Origin: Patescibacteria group bacterium
GTDB lineage: Bacteria > Patescibacteriota > Patescibacteriia > UBA1558 > GWA2-36-10
Direction: 5' to 3'
Assembly: GCA_041665545.1 (NCBI GenBank)
Contig: JBAYIQ010000006.1
Location: 1 to 50,505, forward strand
DNA: 50,505 bases
Below are positions 9,586 to 49,588 of this stretch, in pieces. Position 1 is the stretch's first letter. The number at the start of each line of letters is the position of its first letter. A model generated the notes under the pieces. The model was not told the origin of the DNA. It saw only the letters and a program-made list of their open reading frames with translations, and did no database searches. Both the position numbers and the translations under genes were made by a program.

Positions 9586-9699
9586 GGCTGGCCCCTTCCA
9601 CTGTCATTCCCGCGAAAGCGGGAATCTACCATTGTTATACCAATGGCAAATCAATGGTAGATCCCGGATCAAGTCCGGGATGACAATGAGGGGCCAGCC
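9586..9699. repeat. GTCA...TGAC nested-palindrome element, copy R1
   Basis: Core 9603-9684: GTCA-TTCCCGCgaaaGCGGGAA-TCTACCATTG..CAATGGTAGA-TCCCGGAtcaagTCCGGGA-TGAC. Outer 11-bp stem GGCTGGCCCCT (9586-9596) / AGGGGCCAGCC (9689-9699). Confidence 0.85.
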
Positions 9700-17665: not shown

Positions 17666-17668
17666 GCC

Positions 17669-17723
17669 GTCATCCCGCACTTGTTGCGGGATCTAGCAAG
17701 ATTCCTGCCTACGCAGGAATGAC
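17669..17723. repeat. GTCA...TGAC nested-palindrome element, copy R2 (55 bp)
   Basis: GTCA-TCCCGCActtgtTGCGGGA-TCTAGCAAGA-TTCCTGCctacGCAGGAA-TGAC, between queH and queA. Confidence 0.85.
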
Positions 17724-17729
17724 AAGCAT

Positions 17730-19009: not shown

Positions 19010-20356
19010 TTATAAAAATAAAATTATTAATAAATTAGTGATTACAAAAAATAAATGGGATTCAGTAAAATATCTAGATAAAAACCAGACCCCACCCATT
19101 AATAGTGTACCGTGTAAATAGACATTTTTTTGGGTATTGTTTTTATATTGTCTATATAAAAACAGCGGTAAAAAGGTAATAATAAATATTGTTTGCCAGA
19201 TAGCAAAATTATAAAATTGAGTTGGTTCAGAAATAATTTTCAGCTGTAGCAGTAAGCCAGCTAGTCCAAGCCCACGTGCTGGATAAAGATGGCCTAAGTA
19301 GTAAACTGTGTCGTGGTAGAAGGCCTTGGGATCCCATAAAATAAAAGGTAATAGTATAAGACAGACAAGAAACAGCATTACGAGTGGGTATTTAATAAAT
19401 TTTAATAAGGATTGTTTATTAATTGGTAAATACTTTTTAAATAAAATAAATGTTAAAAAGAAAGGCCAGAAAAAGATCATGTTTTGCTTAGTTAGGCCGG
19501 CTAAGCTGATCATAATGATTGAAAAAGTATAACGCTCTTTTTTTAAGAAAAAATACGCCCATAATAAAAAATACAGCGGGACTATATCACCAAAACCAAA
19601 AATTATGTCCGTGTATAAGAAAGTATTTAATGTAAAAAACAATAGTAATCCATTTTTCTTTTTTAAACTGGAGGGCAGTTTATATATTAGTAGACAAGCT
19701 AATAGGTATATTAGAAAATTGAGTATTCTATTATCATAAAAGTGAAAAATATTTATAAACACATATTTAAATGGTAGCGGTAAAATAAAGAAAAGCGGCA
19801 TATAAACATAGTTTTCCAAAGCCGGATTAAGCATTGTCCATTGTTTATGAACGCTGTCAAATTTTATCCAGTGATAGGTTTCATTATCCATAGCAGTACC
19901 ATAGTAATCTTCTTGGTATGGATTTTTTCCTTTTAGGATATAGTCAACCGCCGTTTCAGTCTGTAGAATACCATCCTGAGGGCTCCAAGCCGGGTTAGTA
20001 TTGTTGTATCGCCTATAGATATTTATTGATAAAATTAAAGCTTGGATTATTAAGAAACAAATTATTATCAATATTTTATTTTTATTATTATTTTTTTTAA
20101 TTGCCCAGTAATAAAAAATAGCTAATAAAGAAAAAATAAGTAATAAAACAAGTGATATTAACGTGAAACTACTGTTGTTAATTATATTTTCGGGGTTGAA
20201 GTCTAGGTTTGTAAAGAAAAGTTTTAAATAATCTAAGACACTTGAGAAAAACATAATCGATAAGATAAAAAAAAGAGTAAATTCCCAAGAACTATACTTG
20301 ATTAACATTAAGTAGGGTGAAAGGAGATCGTCAAAAGTTTTTTTAATTTTTTCCAT
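19010..20356 (-). CDS. polytopic GT-C-like membrane glycosyltransferase (DUF2029/GT87-like), paralogue 2
   Basis: 448 aa with at least 10 TM segments. First loop motif DGILQTE..YILKGKNPY. Collinear with the upstream paralogue. Confidence 0.5.
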   Translation of the reverse strand: MEKIKKTFDDLLSPYLMLIKYSSWEFTLFFILSIMFFSSVLDYLKLFFTNLDFNPENIINNSSFTLISLVLLLIFSLLAIFYYWAIKKNNNKNKILIIICFLIIQALILSINIYRRYNNTNPAWSPQDGILQTETAVDYILKGKNPYQEDYYGTAMDNETYHWIKFDSVHKQWTMLNPALENYVYMPLFFILPLPFKYVFINIFHFYDNRILNFLIYLLACLLIYKLPSSLKKKNGLLLFFTLNTFLYTDIIFGFGDIVPLYFLLWAYFFLKKERYTFSIIMISLAGLTKQNMIFFWPFFLTFILFKKYLPINKQSLLKFIKYPLVMLFLVCLILLPFILWDPKAFYHDTVYYLGHLYPARGLGLAGLLLQLKIISEPTQFYNFAIWQTIFIITFLPLFLYRQYKNNTQKNVYLHGTLLMGGVWFLSRYFTESHLFFVITNLLIILFL

Positions 20357-20364
20357 AGTTGACT

Positions 20365-21711
20365 TTATAAAAACATAGCTATTATCAAATTAGTAATAAC
20401 AACGCCAAGATGAGCCTCAGTAAAATTTCTAGAGAAAAACCACATCCCAGTCATTAATATGGTGCCATATAGATAGACGTGTTGAGGATTATTTTTTTTG
20501 AATTGTTTATATAATAGTAATGGTAAAAAAATTATAATAAATGTGACTTGCCATAAAACAAAACCATAATATTTTAGTGGGTCGCTAATAATATGTAAAT
20601 TCAATAATAATCCAGCTAACCCAACCCCACGAGCGGGGTATATATATTTAAGGTAGGTAACAGTGTCATAATAAAAAGCTCCCGGGTTCCATAAAATAAA
20701 AGGTAATAATATGACGCAACATAGAAGTAACATTATGAGTGGGTATTTAAGGTATTGTAGAAATGATCGCTGGTTAAGAGGCCAGAATTTTTTAAATAAA
20801 ATGTATGCTAAAAAGAAAGGCCAAAAAAATATTATATTTTGTTTACTTAAACCGGCAATGCTGATCATAATTATTGACTTGGAGTATTGCTCTTTTTTCA
20901 AATAATAGTAACTAGACAGTAAGAAGAGAAGGGGCAATATATCATTGAACCCGAAAACCATATGTAGATAAAAAAAATTATTCAAAGTGAAAAATATAAG
21001 GGCGCAATTTTTTTTCTTTTGGGTTTTTGGTATTTTGTAGATAAAAAAACAAGCCAGCAAGTAAATTATGAAATTGAAAATACGATTATCATAAAAACCA
21101 AAAATATTCGTGAACATTATTTTTAAAGGCAAGGGTAGAATAAAGCTAAGGGGCATATATACATAGCTTTCCAAGGCCGGGTTAATAAACCTCCATACTT
21201 TGCCGGCTCCACCCATTGTAATATAGTGGTCTCTAAAATTATCCATAGCAGTCTCGTGGTAGTTTTCTTCGTATGGATTTTTACCTTGCATTAACAAATT
21301 CATAGCTACTTCAGTTTGAGCAATGCCATCATGAGGGAGTGTATCTATGCGAGGATTGTTAAATCTTACATTAATTCTTGCAGCCACAGTCAAACCCTGT
21401 ATTAATAAAATGAAGATTATAACGACTATTTTAATTCTGTTCAGGTTTTTTTTAATTGCCCAAAAGTATATATATGACAAAGAATAAAAAATTACTATGC
21501 TTAAAAAAGTAAAAAAGAGCACCTGTGTGCTTAATTTGTCGGGATTCAAATAAATATTTTTTAATGTTATAAATTGGCAAGTCATATTGATTGTAACATC
21601 AAAAAAGATTGCCAGTAAAATGAAGAAAAAAACAAACTCCCAGGAGAGATATTTTATAATTATTAGGTATGGCGAAGCTAGTCCCCTAAGCGTTCTTTTT
21701 ATTTTTTCCAT
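20365..21711 (-). CDS. polytopic GT-C-like membrane glycosyltransferase, paralogue 1
   Basis: Also exactly 448 aa. Alignable end to end with 19010-20356 (MEKIK.T...SPYL.IIKY.SWEF ... ITNL). Loop motif DGIAQTE..LLMQGKNPY. Confidence 0.5.
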   Translation of the reverse strand: MEKIKRTLRGLASPYLIIIKYLSWEFVFFFILLAIFFDVTINMTCQFITLKNIYLNPDKLSTQVLFFTFLSIVIFYSLSYIYFWAIKKNLNRIKIVVIIFILLIQGLTVAARINVRFNNPRIDTLPHDGIAQTEVAMNLLMQGKNPYEENYHETAMDNFRDHYITMGGAGKVWRFINPALESYVYMPLSFILPLPLKIMFTNIFGFYDNRIFNFIIYLLACFFIYKIPKTQKKKNCALIFFTLNNFFYLHMVFGFNDILPLLFLLSSYYYLKKEQYSKSIIMISIAGLSKQNIIFFWPFFLAYILFKKFWPLNQRSFLQYLKYPLIMLLLCCVILLPFILWNPGAFYYDTVTYLKYIYPARGVGLAGLLLNLHIISDPLKYYGFVLWQVTFIIIFLPLLLYKQFKKNNPQHVYLYGTILMTGMWFFSRNFTEAHLGVVITNLIIAMFL

Positions 21712-25575: not shown

Positions 25576-25605
25576 AATAAGAAAAATTTGCTATAATATC
25601 GATGC

Positions 25606-25660
25606 GTCATCCCGCACTTGTTGCGGGATCTAGCTAGATTCCTGCCTGCGCAGGAATGAC
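25606..25660. repeat. GTCA...TGAC nested-palindrome element, copy R3 (55 bp)
   Basis: GTCA-TCCCGCActtgtTGCGGGA-TCTAGCTAGA-TTCCTGCctgcGCAGGAA-TGAC. Near-identical to R2 and R7. Confidence 0.85.
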
Positions 25661-25678
25661 AGTTCAAATAACACAATA

Positions 25679-26486: not shown

Positions 26487-26600
26487 GGCTCGCTGACCCC
26501 TTAGGATGTCATGCCGAACTTGTTTCGGCATCTCCATTAGCCACTTAGCAATTTGAGATCCTGAAATAAATTCAGGATGACAATATGAGGTCAGCGAGCC
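26487..26600. repeat. GTCA...TGAC nested-palindrome element, copy R5
   Basis: Core 26508-26581: GTCA-TGCCGAActtgttTCGGCA-TCTC..GAGA-TCCTGAAataaaTTCAGGA-TGAC. Outer 12-bp stem GGCTCGCTGACC (26487-26498) / GGTCAGCGAGCC (26589-26600). Confidence 0.85.
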
Positions 26601-27480: not shown

Positions 27481-27571
27481 GTCATCCCGCACTTCCGCCA
27501 AAGGCGGACAGGTGTTGCGGGATCTAGTTTTAGATTATTACAAACTAGATTCCTGCCTACGCAGGAATGAC
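27481..27571. repeat. GTCA...TGAC nested-palindrome element, copy R4 (91 bp, expanded)
   Basis: Same ends and hairpins as R2/R3. It carries an extra hairpin CCGCCaaaGGCGG (27495-27507) inside hairpin 1 and an extended central stem TCTAGTTT..AAACTAGA. Confidence 0.85.
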
Positions 27572-27578
27572 AGCAAGT

Positions 27579-28841: not shown

Positions 28842-28961
28842 ATGTTTGTTTTTGGTTATAATAAAAATCTATTGTTTAGTGTAGCATATTAGCTATTTCC
28901 TGCAATATTTAAATAATGAGCCCCCGGCCGCGTGTGGCGACAGGGGGCCCGATGGTCTGGT

Positions 28962-31418: not shown

Positions 31419-31569
31419 CCGCTGACACACCCATTGTCATCCTGAATTTATTTCCCCCGGCCCGCCATAGGCGGAGCCTCGCAGAATGCGGGGCGAGCAG
31501 GATCTCAAATTGCAGAGTGGCAACGGAGATGCCGAAACAAGTTCGGCATGACAGCGTTAGGGTCAGCGG
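31419..31569. repeat. GTCA...TGAC nested-palindrome element, copy R6 (R5-type, inverted, with a 44-bp insertion)
   Basis: Core 31436-31552. Hairpin GCCGAACTTGTTTCGGC is identical to that of R5. A 44-bp GC-rich insert (31454-31497, containing CCGCCataGGCGG) splits the TCCTGAA..TTCAGGA hairpin loop. Outer stem CCGCTGAC (31419-31426) / GTCAGCGG (31562-31569). Confidence 0.85.
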
Positions 31570-39545: not shown

Positions 39546-39644
39546 AAAAAATACTCCAACCCTGCTGTCATCCCGCACTTGTTGCGGGATCTCGCTAGAT
39601 TCCTGCCTTCGCAGGAATGACGCTATAAAGTCGGAGTATTTTTT
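39546..39644. repeat. GTCA...TGAC nested-palindrome element, copy R7, inside a terminator-like outer stem
   Basis: Core 39567-39621: GTCA-TCCCGCActtgtTGCGGGA-TCTCGCTAGA-TTCCTGCcttcGCAGGAA-TGAC. Outer stem AAAAAATACTCC (39546-39557) / GGAGTATTTTTT (39633-39644). Confidence 0.85.
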
Positions 39645-43979: not shown

Positions 43980-45809
43980 TTATTTTTTAAGAGAACGCTT
44001 GGTTTTGATGTACCAAGTGTTGATAGTACTCAAGCGGTCAGCTGGCAAGTTGATGAATTGGACTTGATCCAAGCCCTTTAACTTGTTGGCTACCGGGTAA
44101 GTATAAGTTGGGCTATATAAAAATACAGCAAAATTTAGTTCAGTTATTTTTTTCTGGAAGTTTTTTAATGGTTCAATTTTGGCTTCCAAGGTGCTAGCGT
44201 TTCTGGCCTGTTCCAAGTATTTATCAATATCCTTGTTGCCTAAGTTTGATAAATTGAGGCCAGGACTTTTGACCTGCGAAGAGTGCCAGAATAGATACGG
44301 TCCAGAATTAATATTTAATTGTTCGCTAAAAATCAAAGCTTGATAATTGCGTGGTTCAATGACTTCTTTGAGCATGCGTTCGCGAGGGATGATTTCCAGT
44401 TGGGTTTTGATACCAAGGGCTTCCCAATTTTCTTTGATGATTGAGGCGGCTTTGGTCATTTCTGGCTGGTCAATGGTGGTGATTTTTAACTCAGCTGTGG
44501 AAGTGCTTTTACCTTTGGTAATAATGCGCCATTCACTGCCTTCGACTTTTTTGTAGCCAAGTTTGTCTAATAATTCGGCAGCTTTGTTTTGATTGCCAAG
44601 TTCGGTTTTGATATTAGAGTCATAGCCCATATCGCCAGGCAAGACTGGGGAATAAATTATTTGGCCATTGTTTTCAGCGGCCTCTCTAATAATCCTTTCT
44701 TTATCGACACTAAGGTCAAGCGCTTGGCGAAAATTATTTTCAGCCAAAAGAGCATTATTGCCAGGGTTGAAAAACACAGCGGTGTAGCGGGGGTTGTGTA
44801 GCTCCTTGAGTGTCAGGTCATTATTTTTGACGCTATTTTTGTATTCGTTGGGCAAGTAAGCCAGGCCCTCAACATTTTTGTTTTGCAAAGCCTGTACGGC
44901 TGTCTGGAAGTCGGGATAAAATTTGAAAATCAAATCCTTAATATATGGCTGGCCAGCGTGATATTTATCAAAACTTACTAAGGCATAGGTTTTGATGTTG
45001 CCACTCTGATCCTTGGTTAGGGATTTGAACATATAGGGACCGCAACCAATTGGCTTGATATTTAGTTCGGTCAGGGGAGCGCCAATAGCTGGTATGCTGT
45101 ACCACAAATGTTCTGGCAAAATTCCGATGGTCAAGGAAGACAAAAACAATGGGTTTGGTTTTTCTAGATTGAATTGAATGGTATTTTCATTTAGGGCCTG
45201 GACATTGACTCCTGAAAAAGTAGAGCGGTAGGGACTTTTGTATTCAGCTTTTTTTATACTTTCAATAGTAAAGATTATATCCTCAGCCGTCACTGCTTCA
45301 CCATCGTGCCACTGCAAGCCAGAGCGTAATTCAAAAGTATATTGGTCTTGGTTGGCGTTGATAGTATAGCCGCTAGCCAAGTCTGGTTGCAGAGAGCCAT
45401 TGCCATCGGTTTTCATCAGGCCAGCATAAACCAATTTGCTTAGGTCGCGGTCAGAATCACTGGTGGCCAAAATTGGATTGACATAAAAAGGAGCGCCGAC
45501 CATGCCTTCAATATAGCTACCACCAAAAGCAGGGGCTTCTTGGGAGTGCTTGATATAGAATCGCCAAGTCAGAGCGCAAGCCGAGCCCAGTAAAATAATA
45601 ATAGCTAAAAATAATTGAGCTTTTTCCAAGCGGTTTAGAAATTTTGGCAATTGTCTGAACTGGTGCCAGCTAGGAATTTTCTTTTTATTTAAATTCAAAA
45701 TCAATTGTTGATCGTCATCAGGCTGTTCTTTGGGGAAAAAGAACCTCTTTATTTTTCTAATCAAATAGAAAGATGCTAACAAAAATTTTTGGGTTTTTTG
45801 TTTAGCCAA
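43980..45809 (-). CDS. ABC transporter substrate-binding protein, family 5 (OppA/DppA-like), N-terminally TM-anchored
   Basis: 609 aa. SBP_bac_5-like motifs (LVYAGLMK, WHDGEAVTAEDI). Apparent TTG start. Confidence 0.8.
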   Translation of the reverse strand: MAKQKTQKFLLASFYLIRKIKRFFFPKEQPDDDQQLILNLNKKKIPSWHQFRQLPKFLNRLEKAQLFLAIIILLGSACALTWRFYIKHSQEAPAFGGSYIEGMVGAPFYVNPILATSDSDRDLSKLVYAGLMKTDGNGSLQPDLASGYTINANQDQYTFELRSGLQWHDGEAVTAEDIIFTIESIKKAEYKSPYRSTFSGVNVQALNENTIQFNLEKPNPLFLSSLTIGILPEHLWYSIPAIGAPLTELNIKPIGCGPYMFKSLTKDQSGNIKTYALVSFDKYHAGQPYIKDLIFKFYPDFQTAVQALQNKNVEGLAYLPNEYKNSVKNNDLTLKELHNPRYTAVFFNPGNNALLAENNFRQALDLSVDKERIIREAAENNGQIIYSPVLPGDMGYDSNIKTELGNQNKAAELLDKLGYKKVEGSEWRIITKGKSTSTAELKITTIDQPEMTKAASIIKENWEALGIKTQLEIIPRERMLKEVIEPRNYQALIFSEQLNINSGPYLFWHSSQVKSPGLNLSNLGNKDIDKYLEQARNASTLEAKIEPLKNFQKKITELNFAVFLYSPTYTYPVANKLKGLDQVQFINLPADRLSTINTWYIKTKRSLKK

Positions 45810-45876: not shown

Positions 45877-46095
45877 TTAGCTGATAAACAAGCTAGCTAA
45901 GGCAGAGGCCAAAAACAAGAAGCTCAAAACAATAGTTAAGCGGAAAATGAATTTTTCAGCTCCTCGTTTGGTGCGATAGATGGCGCTGTCGCCACCAAAA
46001 GTGGCACCCAGGCCCGATCCTTTTTGTTGTAACAAAATCGTTACTATTAACAAAATAGAAATAACGATTTGCAAGATGTTCAAGATATTTTTCAT
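45877..46095 (-). CDS. secG: preprotein translocase subunit SecG
   Basis: Trimmed to the internal ATG. MKNILNILQIVISILLIVTILLQQKGSGLGATFGG...RG.E..IFRLT. TTGACA-17-TAATAT promoter at 46114-46142. Confidence 0.85.
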   Translation of the reverse strand: MKNILNILQIVISILLIVTILLQQKGSGLGATFGGDSAIYRTKRGAEKFIFRLTIVLSFLFLASALASLFIS

Positions 46096-46113
46096 GTGGA
46101 GAATTAAATTAGC

Positions 46114-46142
46114 TTTTTGAATATTAGCATAAAGAAAGTTTA
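46114..46142 (-). promoter_or_regulatory. secG promoter TTGACA-17-TAATAT
   Basis: TGTCAA at 46137-46142 and ATATTA at 46114-46119 on the plus strand. Confidence 0.6.
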
Positions 46143-46272
46143 TTGTCAATGTCGGGGCATATTTTGATGCTAAATATTGACTTGGGATTATAGCTTGTAG
46201 TAGTATAGGGCGGTAAGTGTATAATGATGTTTTTAGGGGTGTTGGTGGGTGTTTCAGACCTGGAGGTGAAAC

Positions 46273-46431
46273 ATGAGCGTTGACAATCATGACGCCGAGT
46301 CCACTCCGACTTGGCAAATTCGAGACATCAGAGAGATTGTGTGTCCAGTGGATTCGCCCCATTATCTCCAATGTGACTGTGATTCCTGTCGGGCCATGTT
46401 GGAGATCGAGCTCCAGAAGCACCGCCGTTAA
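46273..46431 (+). CDS. island W micro-ORF 1 (52 aa, CPx9CxCxxC)
   Basis: GGAGGTG lies 4 nt before the ATG. MSVDNHDAESTPTWQIRDIREIVCPVDSPHYLQCDCDSCRAMLEIELQKHRR. Below the ORF-track cut-off. Confidence 0.35.
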   Translation: MSVDNHDAESTPTWQIRDIREIVCPVDSPHYLQCDCDSCRAMLEIELQKHRR

Positions 46432-46463
46432 CAATGAGGCATTCCCAGTCAAGGAGGCGATTC

Positions 46464-46595
46464 ATGAAGATCGGGTATTCTCACAGAAGAACCGCTGGTG
46501 TGTTCAGTCGGCACCGGCAGCGTCAACGCCGGCGTGCTCAGGCCGAGTACCGACGCATTCGTCAGCGCGGTCGCGTACGGCGAGGTCGTCGGTAA
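46464..46595 (+). CDS. island W micro-ORF 2 (43 aa, 17 Arg)
   Basis: AAGGAGG lies 6 nt before the ATG. MKIGYSHRRTAGVFSRHRQRQRRRAQAEYRRIRQRGRVRRGRR. Confidence 0.35.
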   Translation: MKIGYSHRRTAGVFSRHRQRQRRRAQAEYRRIRQRGRVRRGRR

Positions 46596-46635
46596 TTGGA
46601 TTCGCTCGTCGACATTTGATCTTTCCGCGTTTCTT

Positions 46636-46675
46636 AGGCCGTTCCCTGTTTCTGGGGGACGGCCTGATTTTTTAT
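46636..46675 (+). terminator. intrinsic terminator AGGCCGT-N16-ACGGCCT plus T-run
   Basis: Stem arms at 46636-46642 and 46659-46665, followed by GATTTTTTAT. Confidence 0.7.
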
Positions 46676-46708
46676 AAAAAAGAGGCGAACAGTTGGACTG
46701 CTCGCCTC
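46671..46708 (-). terminator. intrinsic terminator GAGGCGA-N13-TCGCCTC plus minus-strand T-run
   Basis: Stem arms at 46682-46688 and 46702-46708. Lies downstream of the 292-aa ORF stop. Confidence 0.65.
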
Positions 46709-46723
46709 GAGAATCTATGGGTG

Positions 46724-47602
46724 TCAGAAGTCTTCTTCTTCTCTGATGCCGATTTCGATCAGAGAATCTCTGCCTAGCTGATGGAGTGCCGGGTAAAGGG
46801 CTCGGTTCTGCTTCTCAGTGTCTAGCGGCTGGCCAAAGATATTGAGCCAGGCTCGCCGCAAGAATGAGTCTGTGAACCGGCCGTATTTGCTATTGCCAAG
46901 GGTACGGCGATAGAAGCTGACACGGTCGGCGAGGATCAAGATCACCTGCTGAAGCGCCTCACTGCGCACTTGATGTGTTTGACGCTCATCCTCGTGCTGA
47001 TTGCGCTCTTGCTGATAGCGAACCCTGTTAGCATGTTCAGCCAGCAAGAGACCAGTCAGACGATTGTACACTTCGCCTTGCGGTCGATCCAGTAGCTCGA
47101 AGAGCTGGGGCAGTTCAGCGAACTTGAAACGCAGGCGATTGTTGGAATCATCGGATGCTTGCAAACCAGAAGCACTGAGGTCATGATCTAACACCTGGAA
47201 ATAGCTCCAGTCAAAGTATCCGACAAGCTCATGACCTCTGATGAAAATGCGACTGCCCCAATGACCGCCAATAGACACCTCGCAATAGGTGTCTACCAGT
47301 GGTTCGTTGTTGATGCCACGTGGCAAAAGTCGGTGAGCATGAGGTTCACCCTTGTCCATGAACCAATATTCGCGATGCCGCAAAAATATTGGTTCACCAA
47401 TAGCGATGAGTAGCCATAGACCGAGTAAGATAAGGACAATTTTGTAGTAAATGTTTGGGGTTGAAGAAATTAACGCACTGATAATCGTGAAGAGGACGAT
47501 AAACGTCGGGATCGCGATCTTGTGACCAACGCGATGAGCTCCACTACGAGCTTTTTGGCAGAGCTCACATTCGGGTTCGCACTTAACATTGGGTTGACTC
47601 AT
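46724..47602 (-). CDS. island W membrane protein (292 aa), no recognised family
   Basis: TAGGAGG lies 5 nt before the ATG. N-terminal CEPECELC, two TM helices, then a ~200-aa soluble region with a charged coiled-coil-like stretch. Confidence 0.6.
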   Translation of the reverse strand: MSQPNVKCEPECELCQKARSGAHRVGHKIAIPTFIVLFTIISALISSTPNIYYKIVLILLGLWLLIAIGEPIFLRHREYWFMDKGEPHAHRLLPRGINNEPLVDTYCEVSIGGHWGSRIFIRGHELVGYFDWSYFQVLDHDLSASGLQASDDSNNRLRFKFAELPQLFELLDRPQGEVYNRLTGLLLAEHANRVRYQQERNQHEDERQTHQVRSEALQQVILILADRVSFYRRTLGNSKYGRFTDSFLRRAWLNIFGQPLDTEKQNRALYPALHQLGRDSLIEIGIREEEDF

Positions 47603-47742
47603 CTTGACCTCCTATCGATAGGCTCATTTGTCCTACCGAGGGAAGCGCCGCTAATTGGCTATTCAGCTTGACATTATTATCAGCTGACATTCCAATCAGG
47701 GCTAGTGACACCATAGATTTTGAAAGGGCATTTAATGGGATA

Positions 47743-47771
47743 AACTTATTATCATTTATATTTTTTGTCAA
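47743..47771 (-). promoter_or_regulatory. TTGACA-17-TAAGTT promoter with a ~140-nt leader for the 292-aa ORF
   Basis: TGTCAA at 47766-47771 and AACTTA at 47743-47748 on the plus strand. The palindrome CCTATCGATAGG (47611-47622) overlaps the SD. Confidence 0.5.
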
Positions 47772-47802
47772 ATAAAAAAGAGTCACTGGTGTTTGTAATA
47801 TC

Positions 47803-47926
47803 GTCATTCTGGAGCGCAGTCGCGTCTGACGCGGCGAAGCGATAGAATCTATAAGCTAGTGTATTGTAGTAGATTCTATCGGTCGTTACCTGCCTGCCGG
47901 CAGGCAGGCGCTCCCTCCAGAATGAC
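47803..47926. repeat. GTCA...TGAC nested-palindrome element, copy R8 (124 bp, divergent)
   Basis: GTCATTCTGGAG ... CGCGtctgaCGCG ... ATAGAATCT-N20-AGATTCTAT ... CCTGCCTGCCGGCAGGCAGG ... CTCC(c)TCCAGAATGAC. Confidence 0.8.
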
Positions 47927-47944
47927 AGGGTAGTTGGCATTTGT

Positions 47945-49522
47945 TTATTTATAAGATTTTCTATGTTGCTGGCGATAATTTTTGATAGCAAACTTGTGCG
48001 CTTGATTACGCATGTATTGAACAAAAAGAGATAAAGCACTGGTACGCAGTAGGCGAATTGAAGTTTTTCTGCTAGGCAAAAATATTTCTTCTTCTTTTTT
48101 AGCCAAGGATATTGTTTTATTTTTCCAAGTTTTTGGTAATATTTTTGACACTACACTAAGTTGTGGTTTGCCACCATCCAAAATAATTAAATCGGGCTCG
48201 GGCCATTCCTTGTGTCTAAGCCGGCGACTCAAAACTTCTTGCATCATCCAAGCGTCATTGGGACCAGCCACATATTTTATTTTGAACCAGCGGTATTGGT
48301 CAGCGGCAATTTTGCCATCTTGAAAAACAACCATAGCGCCGACGGCCAGTGTGCCCTGAATATTGGAAATGTCATAAATCTCAATTCGACGCGGTAAGAC
48401 TTTTAATTTGAGTAGTGACTGCAAAGCACTAAGCTGTTGCCATTTAGTTTGGTCAATATTTCTTTCCAAATGATCTTGAGCATTTTTTTGTACTAACTCC
48501 AGTAGTTTTTTATTATGACCTTGTTTTGGTACTAGTATTTTTATTTTTTTAGACAAAATAGTTTGCGTTTTATTTATTTTCTCGGGCAAGAGCAGACTAG
48601 CTGGCTGGTCCATTTTATCGCTATAAAATTGGTTGATAAAATTTTCAATAATTTCAGCATCAGATAATTTAAGTTCATTTTGAATAATAAAATTAAATTT
48701 GTCACCCAAAATTCCCCGGCGTATTTGCATGGCGGTCAAAGCCACAGTTTGTCCGAAGCTGGTCAGATTAATAATATCTTGGTTGATGTTTTGGTTGGAA
48801 ATTACTTTTTGTTTGGCTTGTAGTTTTTGTAGGGATTGCAGTTGGTCGCGTTTTATTTTGGCTAGTTCAAAGTTTTTTTCGGCACTGAATTTTTTTAATT
48901 CTCGCAACAAACTAGCTTCCAATTCGTAGGTCTCGCCACGGATTATTTTTTTTGCTTGATTTATTAGGTCACTATATTCAGCAACAGAAATTAATTTTTC
49001 ACAAGGACCCAAACAACGATGCATATGATATTCCAAACAAACTTTGCCTTTGGGTAATCGTGATAAATCACGGCCACAGGTGCGTAAAGGCAGGATGCGA
49101 TGCAAAAGTCGGACAGTAGTGCGTGCCGCAAAAGTAGAGGTGTATGGTCCAAAATGCTGGCCCTTTCTTTTTTGCCGACCATGAATGACAACAATACGCG
49201 GAAAGATTTCATTAGTAATGACTATGTAGCCCCAATTTTTGTCATCTTTCAAAACAATATTATATTTGGGCTGGTGTTTTTTTATTTGGCTGGCTTCTAG
49301 TAGTAAGCTTTCGGTTTCATTATCTACCAGTGTGTAGCGAATGTGGGCGATTTCTTGGAGCATCAGTAATTTTTGTTCAGTCAATTCACTGCTTTTTTGC
49401 CAATAGGAAACCAAGCGGCTTTTGAGATTTTTGGCTTTGCCGATATAGATGATTTGTCCCTGTTTATTTAGGAAAAAATAGACTCCGGGACTGGTGGGTA
49501 TTTTTTTGAAATCAGGTGTCAT
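47945..49522 (-). CDS. uvrC: excinuclease ABC subunit C, apparently lacking the C-terminal (HhH)2 domain
   Basis: Trimmed to the ATG at 49522. GIY-YIG motif PGVYFFLNKQGQIIYIGKAKNLKSRL, a UVR-like helix and an RNase H-like endonuclease domain. Ends right after MRNQAHKFAIKNYRQQHRK. Confidence 0.88.
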   Translation of the reverse strand: MTPDFKKIPTSPGVYFFLNKQGQIIYIGKAKNLKSRLVSYWQKSSELTEQKLLMLQEIAHIRYTLVDNETESLLLEASQIKKHQPKYNIVLKDDKNWGYIVITNEIFPRIVVIHGRQKRKGQHFGPYTSTFAARTTVRLLHRILPLRTCGRDLSRLPKGKVCLEYHMHRCLGPCEKLISVAEYSDLINQAKKIIRGETYELEASLLRELKKFSAEKNFELAKIKRDQLQSLQKLQAKQKVISNQNINQDIINLTSFGQTVALTAMQIRRGILGDKFNFIIQNELKLSDAEIIENFINQFYSDKMDQPASLLLPEKINKTQTILSKKIKILVPKQGHNKKLLELVQKNAQDHLERNIDQTKWQQLSALQSLLKLKVLPRRIEIYDISNIQGTLAVGAMVVFQDGKIAADQYRWFKIKYVAGPNDAWMMQEVLSRRLRHKEWPEPDLIILDGGKPQLSVVSKILPKTWKNKTISLAKKEEEIFLPSRKTSIRLLRTSALSLFVQYMRNQAHKFAIKNYRQQHRKSYK

Positions 49523-49588
49523 GTCATTAATATAGCAGACATTAAATATTAAAAGCAATTTTTGATTTTTATCATTCATTACATCTTT

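What the first reader, a model, noticed from the sequence alone, without database searches (positions are those of the whole stretch)
46170..47771. Island W: two SD-led micro-ORFs (a Cys-motif peptide and a 40 % arginine peptide) convergent with an orphan two-TM protein
Seen: on the plus strand are ORF 46273-46431 (52 aa, C-x9-C-x-C-xx-C) and ORF 46464-46595 (43 aa, 17 Arg). Each has GGAGG at canonical spacing, followed by a clean terminator at 46636-46675. On the minus strand, TTGACA-17-TAAGTT (47743-47771) is followed by a ~140-nt leader, TAGGAGG and a 292-aa ORF (46724-47602). That ORF has a CxxCxxC N-terminus, two TM helices and its own terminator at 46671-46708. The palindrome CCTATCGATAGG overlaps its SD. 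This is the highest-GC stretch I counted (40/60). Inference: a self-contained three-gene module of foreign origin. A small basic peptide, a zinc-ribbon-like peptide and a membrane protein would fit a toxin/antitoxin, abortive-infection or phage-lysis-type arrangement. I cannot support a specific function. A weak candidate plus-strand promoter is TTGACT-18-TAGTAT at 46170-46199.
Basis: partly seen in the sequence, partly recalled or inferred. Interest (0 to 1): 0.65.

Follow-up and report, generated by a model that had tools for sequence, protein, structure and literature searches.

The report
Orphan island with riboregulated membrane protein
A 1.8-kb foreign-looking insert in a groundwater ultra-small bacterium (Patescibacteria) carries genes for tiny arginine-rich proteins and an orphan membrane-anchored protein; that protein's mRNA starts with a previously undescribed, conserved RNA structure that hides its ribosome-binding site, and what the module does is unknown.

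Summary
The region is an insertion at window 46150-47944, between uvrC and secG, which are adjacent in related Patescibacteria genomes. It is not a fixed three-gene unit but two separable cassettes.

1. Small-protein operon. It has its own conserved promoter and encodes very basic, fast-evolving small proteins. The 43-aa arginine peptide is conserved in three other lineages, and its substitutions are mostly synonymous in that frame. The 52-aa Cys peptide has no homologue anywhere.

2. Membrane protein gene. It encodes a protein with two transmembrane helices (292 aa). The protein family is very rare: five clusters in 1.8-5.8 billion proteins, plus a distant paralogous subfamily.

New result: every member of this gene family is preceded by a conserved, structured leader RNA of about 135 nt. 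It forms helix P1 enclosing hairpin P2, then hairpin P3, which pairs an anti-SD sequence with the GGAGG ribosome-binding site. The structure has 35 pairs, 14 of them with compensatory changes, and no Rfam match.

The two cassettes occur together in five lineages, in convergent or divergent order, but each also occurs alone. I found no homology to toxin-antitoxin, defence, phage or any other known family.

Best guess: a conditionally translated membrane effector with nucleic-acid-binding small partner proteins. The function remains unproven.

The parts
46150..47944 (.). Inserted island between the uvrC stop codon and the ancestral secG promoter
   Evidence: Alignments to empty-site genomes L018, L019 and L012. 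GC is 49.4 % against 38.5 % for the rest of the window.
46177..46206 (+). Promoter of the small-protein operon (TTGACT-18-TAGTAT)
   Evidence: Consensus scan. The -35 and -10 boxes and the start-site region are conserved in 8 loci, including distant ones.
46273..46431 (+). 52-aa Cys-motif ORF (C-x9-C-x-C-xx-C), SD at 46262-46266; specific to this lineage
   Evidence: ORF and SD. No DNA or protein homologue in any related locus. Only its SD-bearing flanks are shared with L004 and L022. GC by codon position resembles that of the 292-aa gene.
46464..46595 (+). 43-aa arginine-rich peptide (17 Arg), SD at 46453-46457; conserved core G[VL]FSRHRQRQRRRA
   Evidence: Homologues in L004 (56 aa), L022 (56 aa) and L007 (50 aa). 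Substitutions are mostly synonymous in this frame and not in the other two.
46634..46677 (+). Intrinsic terminator of the small-protein operon
   Evidence: 15-bp stem plus T-run. Conserved in L004, L008 and L026.
46672..46708 (-). Intrinsic terminator of the 2-TM gene; back-to-back with the plus-strand terminator
   Evidence: 12-bp stem plus T-run. Conserved in L004 and L007.
46724..47602 (-). 292-aa orphan membrane-anchored protein: short N-terminus with conserved CxxC, two TM helices, a beta-rich domain at about residues 76-160, then a helical C-terminal domain with the invariant motif YRR..GNS..G.F.D.FLR
   Evidence: ORF. Only 5 clusters in 1.8-5.8 billion proteins. Alignments A1 and A7. 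AF2 model, mean pLDDT 61. No family or fold match.
47603..47736 (-). Conserved structured 5' leader RNA.
   Evidence: RNAalifold consensus. Covariance model R1 finds the leader upstream of every family member, including sequences not used to build it, at 90-118 bits. 35 pairs, 97 % of cells paired, 14 pairs with compensatory change, 0 of 500 shuffles as good. Single-sequence fold z = -3.7. No Rfam match.
47743..47771 (-). Promoter of the 2-TM gene (TTGACA-17-TAAGTT)
   Evidence: Sequence. TTGACAAAA and the -10 position are kept in all 6 aligned relatives.
47803..47930 (.). Multi-branched hairpin repeat (GTCATTC...GAATGAC termini) at the uvrC-side edge of the island; looks like a copy of a repeat family dispersed in the host genome
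   Evidence: Fold z = -5.5 on the plus strand and -7.0 on the minus strand. Elements with the same kind of termini lie at 9600, 17668, 25605, 27545 and 39566, and at the same position in L006 and L007. Fragments occur in other contigs.

Best explanation
**Shown.** A 1.8-kb accessory island (46150-47944) of atypically high GC is inserted between uvrC and secG of a groundwater Patescibacteria genome. It consists of two cassettes, each with its own promoter.

- **Cassette A (plus strand).** A promoter, two SD-led small ORFs and a terminator. It belongs to a modular, fast-evolving family of extremely basic small proteins. Relatives carry a short arginine-rich form (43-56 aa) and/or a "long form" (105-115 aa). 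The long form has a His/Arg-rich N-terminus with the same [VG]FSR..R.RRR motif, a conserved RRLCIALNRVEGLS...KYDLP core, a Pro-rich linker and a C-terminal CxCxxC. In the window the slots between the conserved SD-bearing junctions hold a lineage-specific 52-aa Cys peptide and a 43-aa arginine peptide.
- **Cassette B (minus strand).** A promoter, a structured leader of about 135 nt, and the gene for a 292-aa protein with two TM helices.

**Inferred mechanism.**
1. The protein is probably anchored with both ends in the cytoplasm.
2. The leader's P3 hairpin pairs CUUCC with the GGAGG SD, so the mRNA is translationally silent by default. It would open only when a trigger remodels the P1/P2 domain. 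I put this at about 0.6.
3. The most probable trans-acting candidates are the co-inherited arginine-rich/Cys-motif small proteins acting as RNA binders. I put this at about 0.2-0.25.
4. The membrane protein is a conditionally made effector of a stress or conflict type. I put this at about 0.3.
For: - **Insertion.** Empty sites with uvrC and secG adjacent.
- **Composition.** Island genes are 10-20 GC points above their flanks in the window, L029, L007, L021 and L008.
- **Assembly.** The identical sequence occurs in three independent assemblies.
- **Arg peptide is coding.** 8 synonymous against 2 non-synonymous changes versus L022. The other frames show the opposite pattern, or a stop.
- **Small-protein family.**
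- **Promoters conserved.**
- **Leader.**
  - 35 pairs, 97 % paired, 14 compensatory, 0 of 500 shuffles as good, and slid controls collapse.
  - Found by the covariance model in front of all type-1 and type-2 2-TM genes, including L028-L033, which were not used to build the model.
  - Found nowhere else in the window or in 15 other loci.
  - In L029 the palindrome is lost but the hairpin is kept through changes in both arms.
- **Co-occurrence of A and B in different arrangements.** Convergent in the window, L004/L005 and L007. Divergent in L020, L028/L029 and L030.
- **Topology.** Two hydrophobic helices with basic flanks.
Against: - There is no transcript, protein or binding data. Only DNA runs exist.
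- Cassette A occurs without B (L008, L022). B occurs without an adjacent A (L021). A strict regulator-target pairing is therefore not obligatory.
- The 52-aa Cys ORF is unsupported by conservation.
- No homology to any characterised RNA-binding protein, effector, toxin or defence protein.
- The AF2 model is of low to moderate confidence (mean pLDDT 61), and fold searches found nothing.
- The leader sample is small: 7-9 distinct sequences from one narrow clade, so relatedness inflates the shuffle statistics.
- The leader could instead sense a small ligand or temperature.
Confidence: 0.4

Rival explanations
1. Toxin-antitoxin or abortive-infection type conflict module. The 2-TM protein is a membrane-damaging toxin kept silent by its leader, and the small basic proteins are antitoxins or sensors.
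For: - Patchy presence among strains that are 86-90 % identical.
- Atypical GC.
- Cassette shuffling and tandem paralogues in L020.
- Tight translational repression is typical of toxic membrane proteins.
Against: - No PADLOC, Pfam, NCBIfam or PHROGs hit.
- The genes are transcribed separately, convergently or divergently, not as one operon.
- Each cassette can occur alone, which is unexpected for an addictive pair.
- The locus always sits next to secG, rather than being scattered as mobile defence genes usually are.
Confidence: 0.2
2. Two unrelated cassettes that merely share a recombination hot spot next to secG. The small basic proteins have nothing to do with the membrane protein or its leader.
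For: - The small-protein operon is present with no 2-TM gene in L008 and L022.
- The 2-TM gene is present with no small-protein gene in L021.
- Each cassette has its own promoter and terminator.
- Hairpin repeats at the edges could promote recombination.
Against: - The cassettes co-occur in five lineages. These span both 2-TM subfamilies (about 30 % identity) and both relative orientations.
- Both families are extremely rare in public data, so repeated chance adjacency is unlikely.
Confidence: 0.2
3. The leader is a small-molecule riboswitch or an RNA thermometer. It controls a membrane protein involved in stress or host-interaction physiology, and the small proteins play no part in the switch.
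For: - Conserved P1/P2 domain with invariant internal-loop and loop nucleotides, directly upstream of an SD-sequestering hairpin. This is the standard layout of a translational riboswitch.
- L021 has the leader but no neighbouring small-protein gene.
Against: - The two-helix domain with a small internal loop is simple for a metabolite aptamer.
- The downstream gene is not a transporter or enzyme that would hint at a ligand.
- No Rfam relative.
- No well-supported alternative ON-state helix was found.
Confidence: 0.15
4. Remnant of a phage or other mobile element. The 2-TM protein would be a holin-like or superinfection-exclusion protein, and the small basic proteins would be phage DNA- or RNA-binding proteins.
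For: - Higher GC than the host.
- Small Cys-motif and basic proteins are common in phages.
- The 52-aa ORF has weak, sub-threshold hits to a PHROG and to the Lar family.
Against: - No relatives in IMG/VR, INPHARED phages, PLSDB plasmids or BFVD folds.
- No integrase, att sites or other phage genes in the island.
- At 292 aa the protein is far larger than holins.
- No endolysin.
Confidence: 0.05

Closest known systems
Translational cis-regulatory leaders that sequester the Shine-Dalgarno sequence (translational riboswitches, RNA thermometers, ribosomal-protein leaders)
   Same: A conserved multi-helix 5' UTR whose last hairpin pairs an anti-SD (CUUCC) with the GGAGG SD just before the start codon. 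Compensatory changes support it.
   Different: No Rfam family matches. The ligand or trigger is unknown. It occurs only in front of one orphan membrane-protein family in a narrow Patescibacteria clade.
Arginine-rich-motif (ARM) RNA-binding peptides, such as lambda N with boxB or HIV Rev/Tat with RRE/TAR. This comparison rests on my own knowledge, not on a tool result.
   Same: A short peptide with about 40 % Arg and a contiguous RHRQRQRRR run, encoded next to an mRNA that has a conserved hairpin and internal-loop leader.
   Different: No sequence homology was tested or claimed. Binding is untested. The peptide genes also occur where no such leader is present (L008, L022).
TIGR04104 (cxxc_20_cxxc putative zinc-finger protein followed by TM helices)
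   Same: An N-terminal CxxC followed by two TM helices. There is a weak alignment over residues 11-74.
   Different: The score is 12.9 bits against a cut-off of 45. There is only one CxxC. A 220-residue cytoplasmic domain is present that the family lacks.
Type I/II toxin-antitoxin and abortive-infection modules with membrane effectors
   Same: A small accessory locus with patchy distribution, and a membrane protein under tight translational control next to small proteins.
   Different: No HMM match. Transcription is separate and convergent. Each component is found alone. The chromosomal position beside secG is fixed.

Membership tests
Any Rfam cis-regulatory RNA family | Covariance-model score at or above the family's gathering threshold | tested here: not met
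   No hits at gathering thresholds over the whole window. Only chance-level hits at E <= 10 in 46100-48000, none on the leader.
Structured cis-regulatory leader (generic kind) | Conserved secondary structure supported by compensatory base changes, in a fixed position upstream of homologous genes | tested here: met
   35 pairs, 14 with changes on both sides, 97 % paired, 0 of 500 shuffles as good. Present upstream of all 2-TM family genes found.
Riboswitch | Direct binding of a small-molecule ligand that switches the expression platform | not testable with these tools
   No ligand can be inferred. The downstream gene gives no metabolic clue.
Known anti-phage defence systems (PADLOC-DB) | Significant match of a component to a defence-protein HMM | tested here: not met
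   The only hit is MTase_II at E = 0.039, 10.5 bits, for the 292-aa protein. There is none for the micro-ORFs.
Toxin-antitoxin module | Adjacent, co-transcribed toxin and antitoxin genes that belong to known families and always occur as a pair | tested here: not met
   Convergent, separately terminated transcription units. No Pfam or NCBIfam family. Each cassette is found alone. Toxicity itself is not testable here.
Phage lysis cassette (holin plus endolysin) | A small holin of 70-150 aa with TM helices next to a muralytic enzyme; phage relatives | tested here: not met
   The protein is 292 aa. There is no endolysin ORF. No PHROG, phage, IMG/VR or BFVD relatives.
TIGR04104 cxxc_20_cxxc zinc-finger/TM protein | Score at or above the 45-bit cut-off; two CxxC pairs | tested here: not met
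   12.9 bits, E = 0.11. Only C12-x2-C15 is conserved.
Lar family restriction-alleviation protein (TIGR03655), considered for the 52-aa ORF | Score at or above the 39.6-bit cut-off | tested here: not met
   14.9 bits, E = 0.026.
Arginine-rich-motif RNA-binding peptides | Specific binding of the Arg-rich segment to a cognate RNA hairpin or internal loop | not testable with these tools
   Only composition (17 of 43 Arg) and proximity to a structured leader are shown.
Zinc-binding anti-sigma (ZAS) factors | An H-x3-C-x2-C motif within an N-terminal anti-sigma domain of about 80 aa, with an adjacent ECF sigma gene | tested here: not met
   The N-terminal cytoplasmic segment is only about 28 aa, with C-x2-C-x7-H. 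There is no sigma gene in the island. No Pfam hit.

The most novel reading that the evidence does not exclude
The island would be a self-contained protein-RNA switch unique to Patescibacteria. The arginine-rich/CxCxxC small proteins bind the conserved P1/P2 internal-loop domain of the leader. That binding opens or locks the SD-sequestering hairpin, so that a membrane-anchored effector of a new fold is made only under a specific condition, such as phage attack or host contact. This would be a new riboregulated conflict or host-interaction system built from three families with no known relatives.
Probability: 0.15. Interest if true: 0.75.

Novelty: new variant of a known kind. Interest (0 to 1): 0.5.

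Why it matters
Patescibacteria have tiny genomes with few recognised regulators and many orphan genes. This work yields three things.

- **A new candidate cis-regulatory RNA.** It is supported by covariation and has a clear expression platform (SD sequestration). It is absent from Rfam.
- **A new small-protein family.** It is modular, extremely basic, and evolves by cassette swapping at conserved SD-bearing junctions.
- **An orphan membrane-anchored protein family.** It is fixed beside secG but gained and lost between close strains.

If the small proteins prove to act on the leader, this would be a compact protein-RNA switch in an organism group where regulation is almost unexplored. If the membrane protein is a conflict or host-contact effector, it would add a new type to those repertoires. 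Even without a function, the leader can be tested directly with reporter and probing assays.

Tried and rejected
**Family and structure searches (all without a significant hit)**
- Pfam, PADLOC, PHROGs and NCBIfam scans of all island proteins and their relatives.
- Profile searches against PDB sequences.
- AF2 with 3 sequences: mean pLDDT 40, unusable.
- AF2 with 5 sequences: mean pLDDT 61. Foldseek against PDB and BFVD: best E = 0.35-0.4, TM < 0.3, no match.

**Searches for relatives elsewhere**
- tblastn against INPHARED phages and PLSDB plasmids: none.
- IMG/VR scans with both protein profiles and with the leader pattern: none.
- Leader pattern in JGI metagenome contigs: none.
- Rfam at gathering and at permissive thresholds: none.

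**Tests of specific ideas**
- The 165-aa alternative frame (46280-46777) is rejected. It shows 0 synonymous against 9 non-synonymous changes and runs through the terminators into the convergent gene.
- Homology of the 52-aa Cys ORF to the long-form C-terminus is not supported beyond the CxCxxC motif (hhalign probability 1.7 %). Homology to the 61-aa second ORF of L026 is not supported either (no BLASTP alignment).
- The palindrome as a DNA operator is rejected, because L029 loses the palindrome but keeps the hairpin.
- The search for an alternative ON-state helix or pseudoknot in the leader found only weak, G-U-rich candidates.
- Population polymorphism of the island: none visible in Logan contigs of four groundwater runs.
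- No RNA-seq runs exist for this organism.
- Literature searches found nothing relevant.
Full report
**1. What is in the sequence**

The window is a low-GC (38.9 %) bacterial genome fragment. The genes flanking the finding are:
- an SBP_bac_5 solute-binding protein (43980-45809, minus strand);
- SecG (45877-46095, minus strand);
- UvrC (47945-49579, minus strand).

Related UvrC loci are all Patescibacteria/Parcubacteria-type MAGs. Runs holding the sequence are groundwater metagenomes. The identical region occurs in three independent assemblies (ENA, JGI, Logan), so it is not an assembly artefact.

- the two SD-led micro-ORFs;
- the two back-to-back intrinsic terminators;
- the 292-aa ORF with two hydrophobic helices;
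- its TTGACA-17-TAAGTT promoter;
- the palindrome over the SD;
- the GC rise.

Two details need correcting.
- The plus-strand promoter is at 46177-46206.
- The N-terminal Cys pattern is C-x3-C-x2-C, of which only CxxC is conserved.

**2. It is an insertion**

In six related genomes (L011-L014, L018, L019), uvrC is followed within 40-140 nt by the secG promoter and secG. Junction alignments place the island between the uvrC stop codon and the ancestral secG -35 box, at window 46150-47944.

The island is 49.4 % GC against 38.5 % for the rest of the window. The corresponding genes are 10-20 GC points above their flanks in every lineage where they occur.

Its uvrC-side edge (47803-47930) is a strongly folding multi-branched hairpin, with z = -5.5 and -7.0 on the two strands. 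Its GTCAT...ATGAC termini match dispersed hairpin repeats elsewhere in the window. Similar elements sit at the same position in L006 and L007. I read it as a host repeat, not as part of the module.

**3. The 292-aa protein**

It has no Pfam, PADLOC, PHROGs or NCBIfam family.

It is extremely rare.
- A word-indexed search of 5.8 billion clusters found only itself and two relatives, at 88 % and 68 % identity.
- A full HMMER profile scan of 1.84 billion representatives added only two more: P0004 at E = 8e-47 and P0005 at E = 4e-18.
- A distant paralogous subfamily ("type 2") was found through a second gene in L020. It has the same architecture and shares the H.H..P...I.IGGW and S.YG.F motifs. It comprises the L020 second gene/L033, L028/L029, L030 and L031/L032.

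AF2 with five sequences gives a modest model (mean pLDDT 61). It shows two TM helices, a beta-rich domain of about seven strands (residues 76-160) and a helical bundle. Foldseek against PDB and BFVD finds nothing. Basic residues flank both helices and the connecting loop is short. This suggests that both ends are cytoplasmic, which is an inference.

Wherever enough context exists, the gene lies upstream of secG and points the same way (window, L004/L005, L007, L021, L029).

**4. The leader RNA (main new result)**

Upstream of the start codon, the nucleotide sequence is better conserved than the protein itself.

RNAalifold predicts three elements:
- an 11-bp helix P1 enclosing a hairpin P2, with conserved internal-loop and loop nucleotides;
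- directly after it, a hairpin P3 in which CUUCC pairs with the GGAGG SD;
- within P3, CUCGGUAGG pairing with CCUAUCGA.

A covariance model built from six leaders gave the following.
- It found the motif only in front of 2-TM family genes.
- Those hits included sequences not used to build the model: L028/L029 at 97 bits, and L030-L032 at 90-100 bits.
- It found nothing else in the window or in 15 other loci.

On seven distinct sequences:
- 97 % of cells are paired;
- 14 of 35 pairs show changes on both sides;
- no shuffle out of 500 reaches these values;
- sliding the partners collapses the signal.

In L029 the palindrome is lost (CCTGTTGATAGG), but the hairpin is kept through matching changes in the 5' arm (CUCAACAGG). 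This rules out a DNA-operator reading. The window leader alone folds into the same structure, with z = -3.7.

There is no Rfam match. No U-tract follows P3. The platform is therefore translational: the SD is hidden by default (inference). The trigger is unknown, and I found no convincing alternative helix.

**5. The micro-ORFs**

*The 43-aa Arg peptide.* It has homologues in L004 (56 aa), L022 (56 aa) and L007 (50 aa), sharing the core G[VL]FSRHRQRQRRRA. Against L022 the core shows 8 synonymous and 2 non-synonymous codon changes. The third frame has a stop in L007. The Arg frame is therefore the coding one.

*The long form.* Relatives also carry a long form of 105-115 aa:
- L004 1234-1557;
- P0007 in L022-L025;
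- P0008 in L026/L027;
- L020 41-385;
- L028/L029;
- a fragment in L030.

The long form has four parts:
- a His/Arg-rich N-terminus carrying the same [VG]FSR..R.RRR motif;
- a conserved RRLCIALNRVEGLS...IN..IL..KYDLP core;
- a Pro-rich linker;
- a C-terminal CxCxxC.

*The 52-aa Cys ORF.* It has no DNA or protein homologue in any locus. It shares only the CxCxxC motif with the long form (hhalign probability 1.7 %). It gives no BLASTP alignment to the 61-aa second ORF of L026. Only its SD-bearing flanks are shared with L004 and L022. The slots between conserved junctions thus hold different ORFs in different strains:
- window: Cys52 + Arg43;
- L004 and L022: Arg56 + long form;
- L008: one 90-aa form;
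- L007: Arg50 only;
- L026: long form + a 61-aa ORF.

The operon promoter is conserved in all eight loci. The Cys ORF has a canonical SD and coding-like GC periodicity, but it remains unverified.

**6. Linkage**

| Arrangement | Loci |
|---|---|
| Both cassettes, convergent | window, L004/L005, L007 |
| Both cassettes, divergent | L020, L028/L029, L030 |
| Small-protein operon alone (between secG and uvrC) | L008, L022 |
| 2-TM gene alone (directly before secG) | L021 |

The cassettes co-occur across both 2-TM subfamilies. Both families are extremely rare, so chance adjacency is unlikely. The pairing is nevertheless not obligatory.

**7. Interpretation**

Shown:
- an acquired, compositionally distinct island made of two promoter-equipped cassettes;
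- a real, conserved Arg-peptide gene;
- an orphan membrane-protein family;
- a new conserved leader that sequesters the SD.

Inferred, with my estimate for each step:
- the leader keeps the mRNA untranslated until a trigger acts (about 0.6);
- the co-inherited Arg-rich/Cys-motif proteins bind nucleic acid and are the best candidates for that trigger (about 0.2-0.25);
- the membrane protein is a conditionally produced stress or conflict effector (about 0.3).

Rival readings are listed separately with their evidence: a TA or Abi module, two unrelated cassettes at a hot spot, a small-molecule riboswitch or RNA thermometer, and a phage remnant. None has homology support.

**8. Comparison with known systems**

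The leader works like translational riboswitches, RNA thermometers and ribosomal-protein leaders, but it belongs to no Rfam family. The Arg peptide resembles ARM peptides in composition only. The 2-TM protein fails the thresholds of TIGR04104 and of all defence, TA and phage models tested.

**9. Verdict**

- Novelty: a new variant of a known kind, that is, an accessory island with a riboregulated gene, built from families without known relatives.
- Interest is moderate (0.5). The leader RNA is a concrete, testable new motif, but function is unknown and the sample is small and phylogenetically narrow.

Noticed in passing
window 47803-47930; also 9600-9628, 17668-17724, 25605-25661, 27545-27573, 39566-39622, 26498-26538 and 31522-31562: A family of dispersed intergenic hairpin repeats with GTCAT...ATGAC-type termini. 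The copy at the island edge folds into a multi-branched structure (z = -5.5 and -7.0 on the two strands). Similar elements sit at the same junction in L006 and L007, and contigs of relatives (L004, L005, L009) break near this point. They may be REP- or MITE-like recombination hot spots.
   Followed up: partly
L020 338-340 (minus strand), inside the long-form small-protein gene (L020 41-385): An in-frame TGA sits exactly where L004 and P0008 have a Cys codon (RK-C-RRRLCIAL), and the reading frame continues with conserved sequence after it. The contig has 0.77x coverage, so a sequencing error is likely. A pseudogene or recoding cannot be excluded.
   Followed up: no
L020 699-1634 and 1898-2857: Two tandem paralogous 2-TM genes (type 1 and type 2). 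Each has its own TTGACAAAA promoter and its own copy of the structured leader.
   Followed up: partly
L006 1-2700: In one contig of the 88 % relative, the 2-TM gene is preceded by type IV pilin-like (N_methyl) genes instead of uvrC. Homology to the window stops at about 47796, at the hairpin repeat. This is either a genuine rearrangement or a repeat-mediated misassembly.
   Followed up: no
L026 922-1740 and L029 beyond 6900: In the lineage carrying the type-2 protein, the island lies between secG and uvrA rather than between secG and uvrC. The repeated neighbourhood with nucleotide-excision-repair genes may be coincidence.
   Followed up: no
L001 6508-7173, about 850 nt beyond uvrC (window about 50430 onward, running past the window end); also L001 6173-6460: A 221-aa IS1595-family DDE transposase fragment and an HTH_17 gene lie just past uvrC on the longer contig. 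The last 450 nt of the window rise to 47-53 % GC.
   Followed up: no
window about 28920, 16595 and 31614: Other short high-GC peaks (57-59 % over 300 nt) in the window. The one near 28920 slightly exceeds this island at the 300-nt scale. I did not examine them. The leader model R1 does not match there.
   Followed up: no
window 19674-19846 and 21029-21201: A 173-nt direct repeat (72 % identity) spaced 1355 nt apart, together with a second repeated block at the same spacing (19883 and 21238). This suggests tandem paralogous genes.
   Followed up: no
window 46434-46463: An in-frame ATG 30 nt upstream would extend the Arg peptide to 53 aa. It has no SD, and in L004 the equivalent ATG is out of frame, so the SD-led 43-aa start is preferred.
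   Followed up: yes
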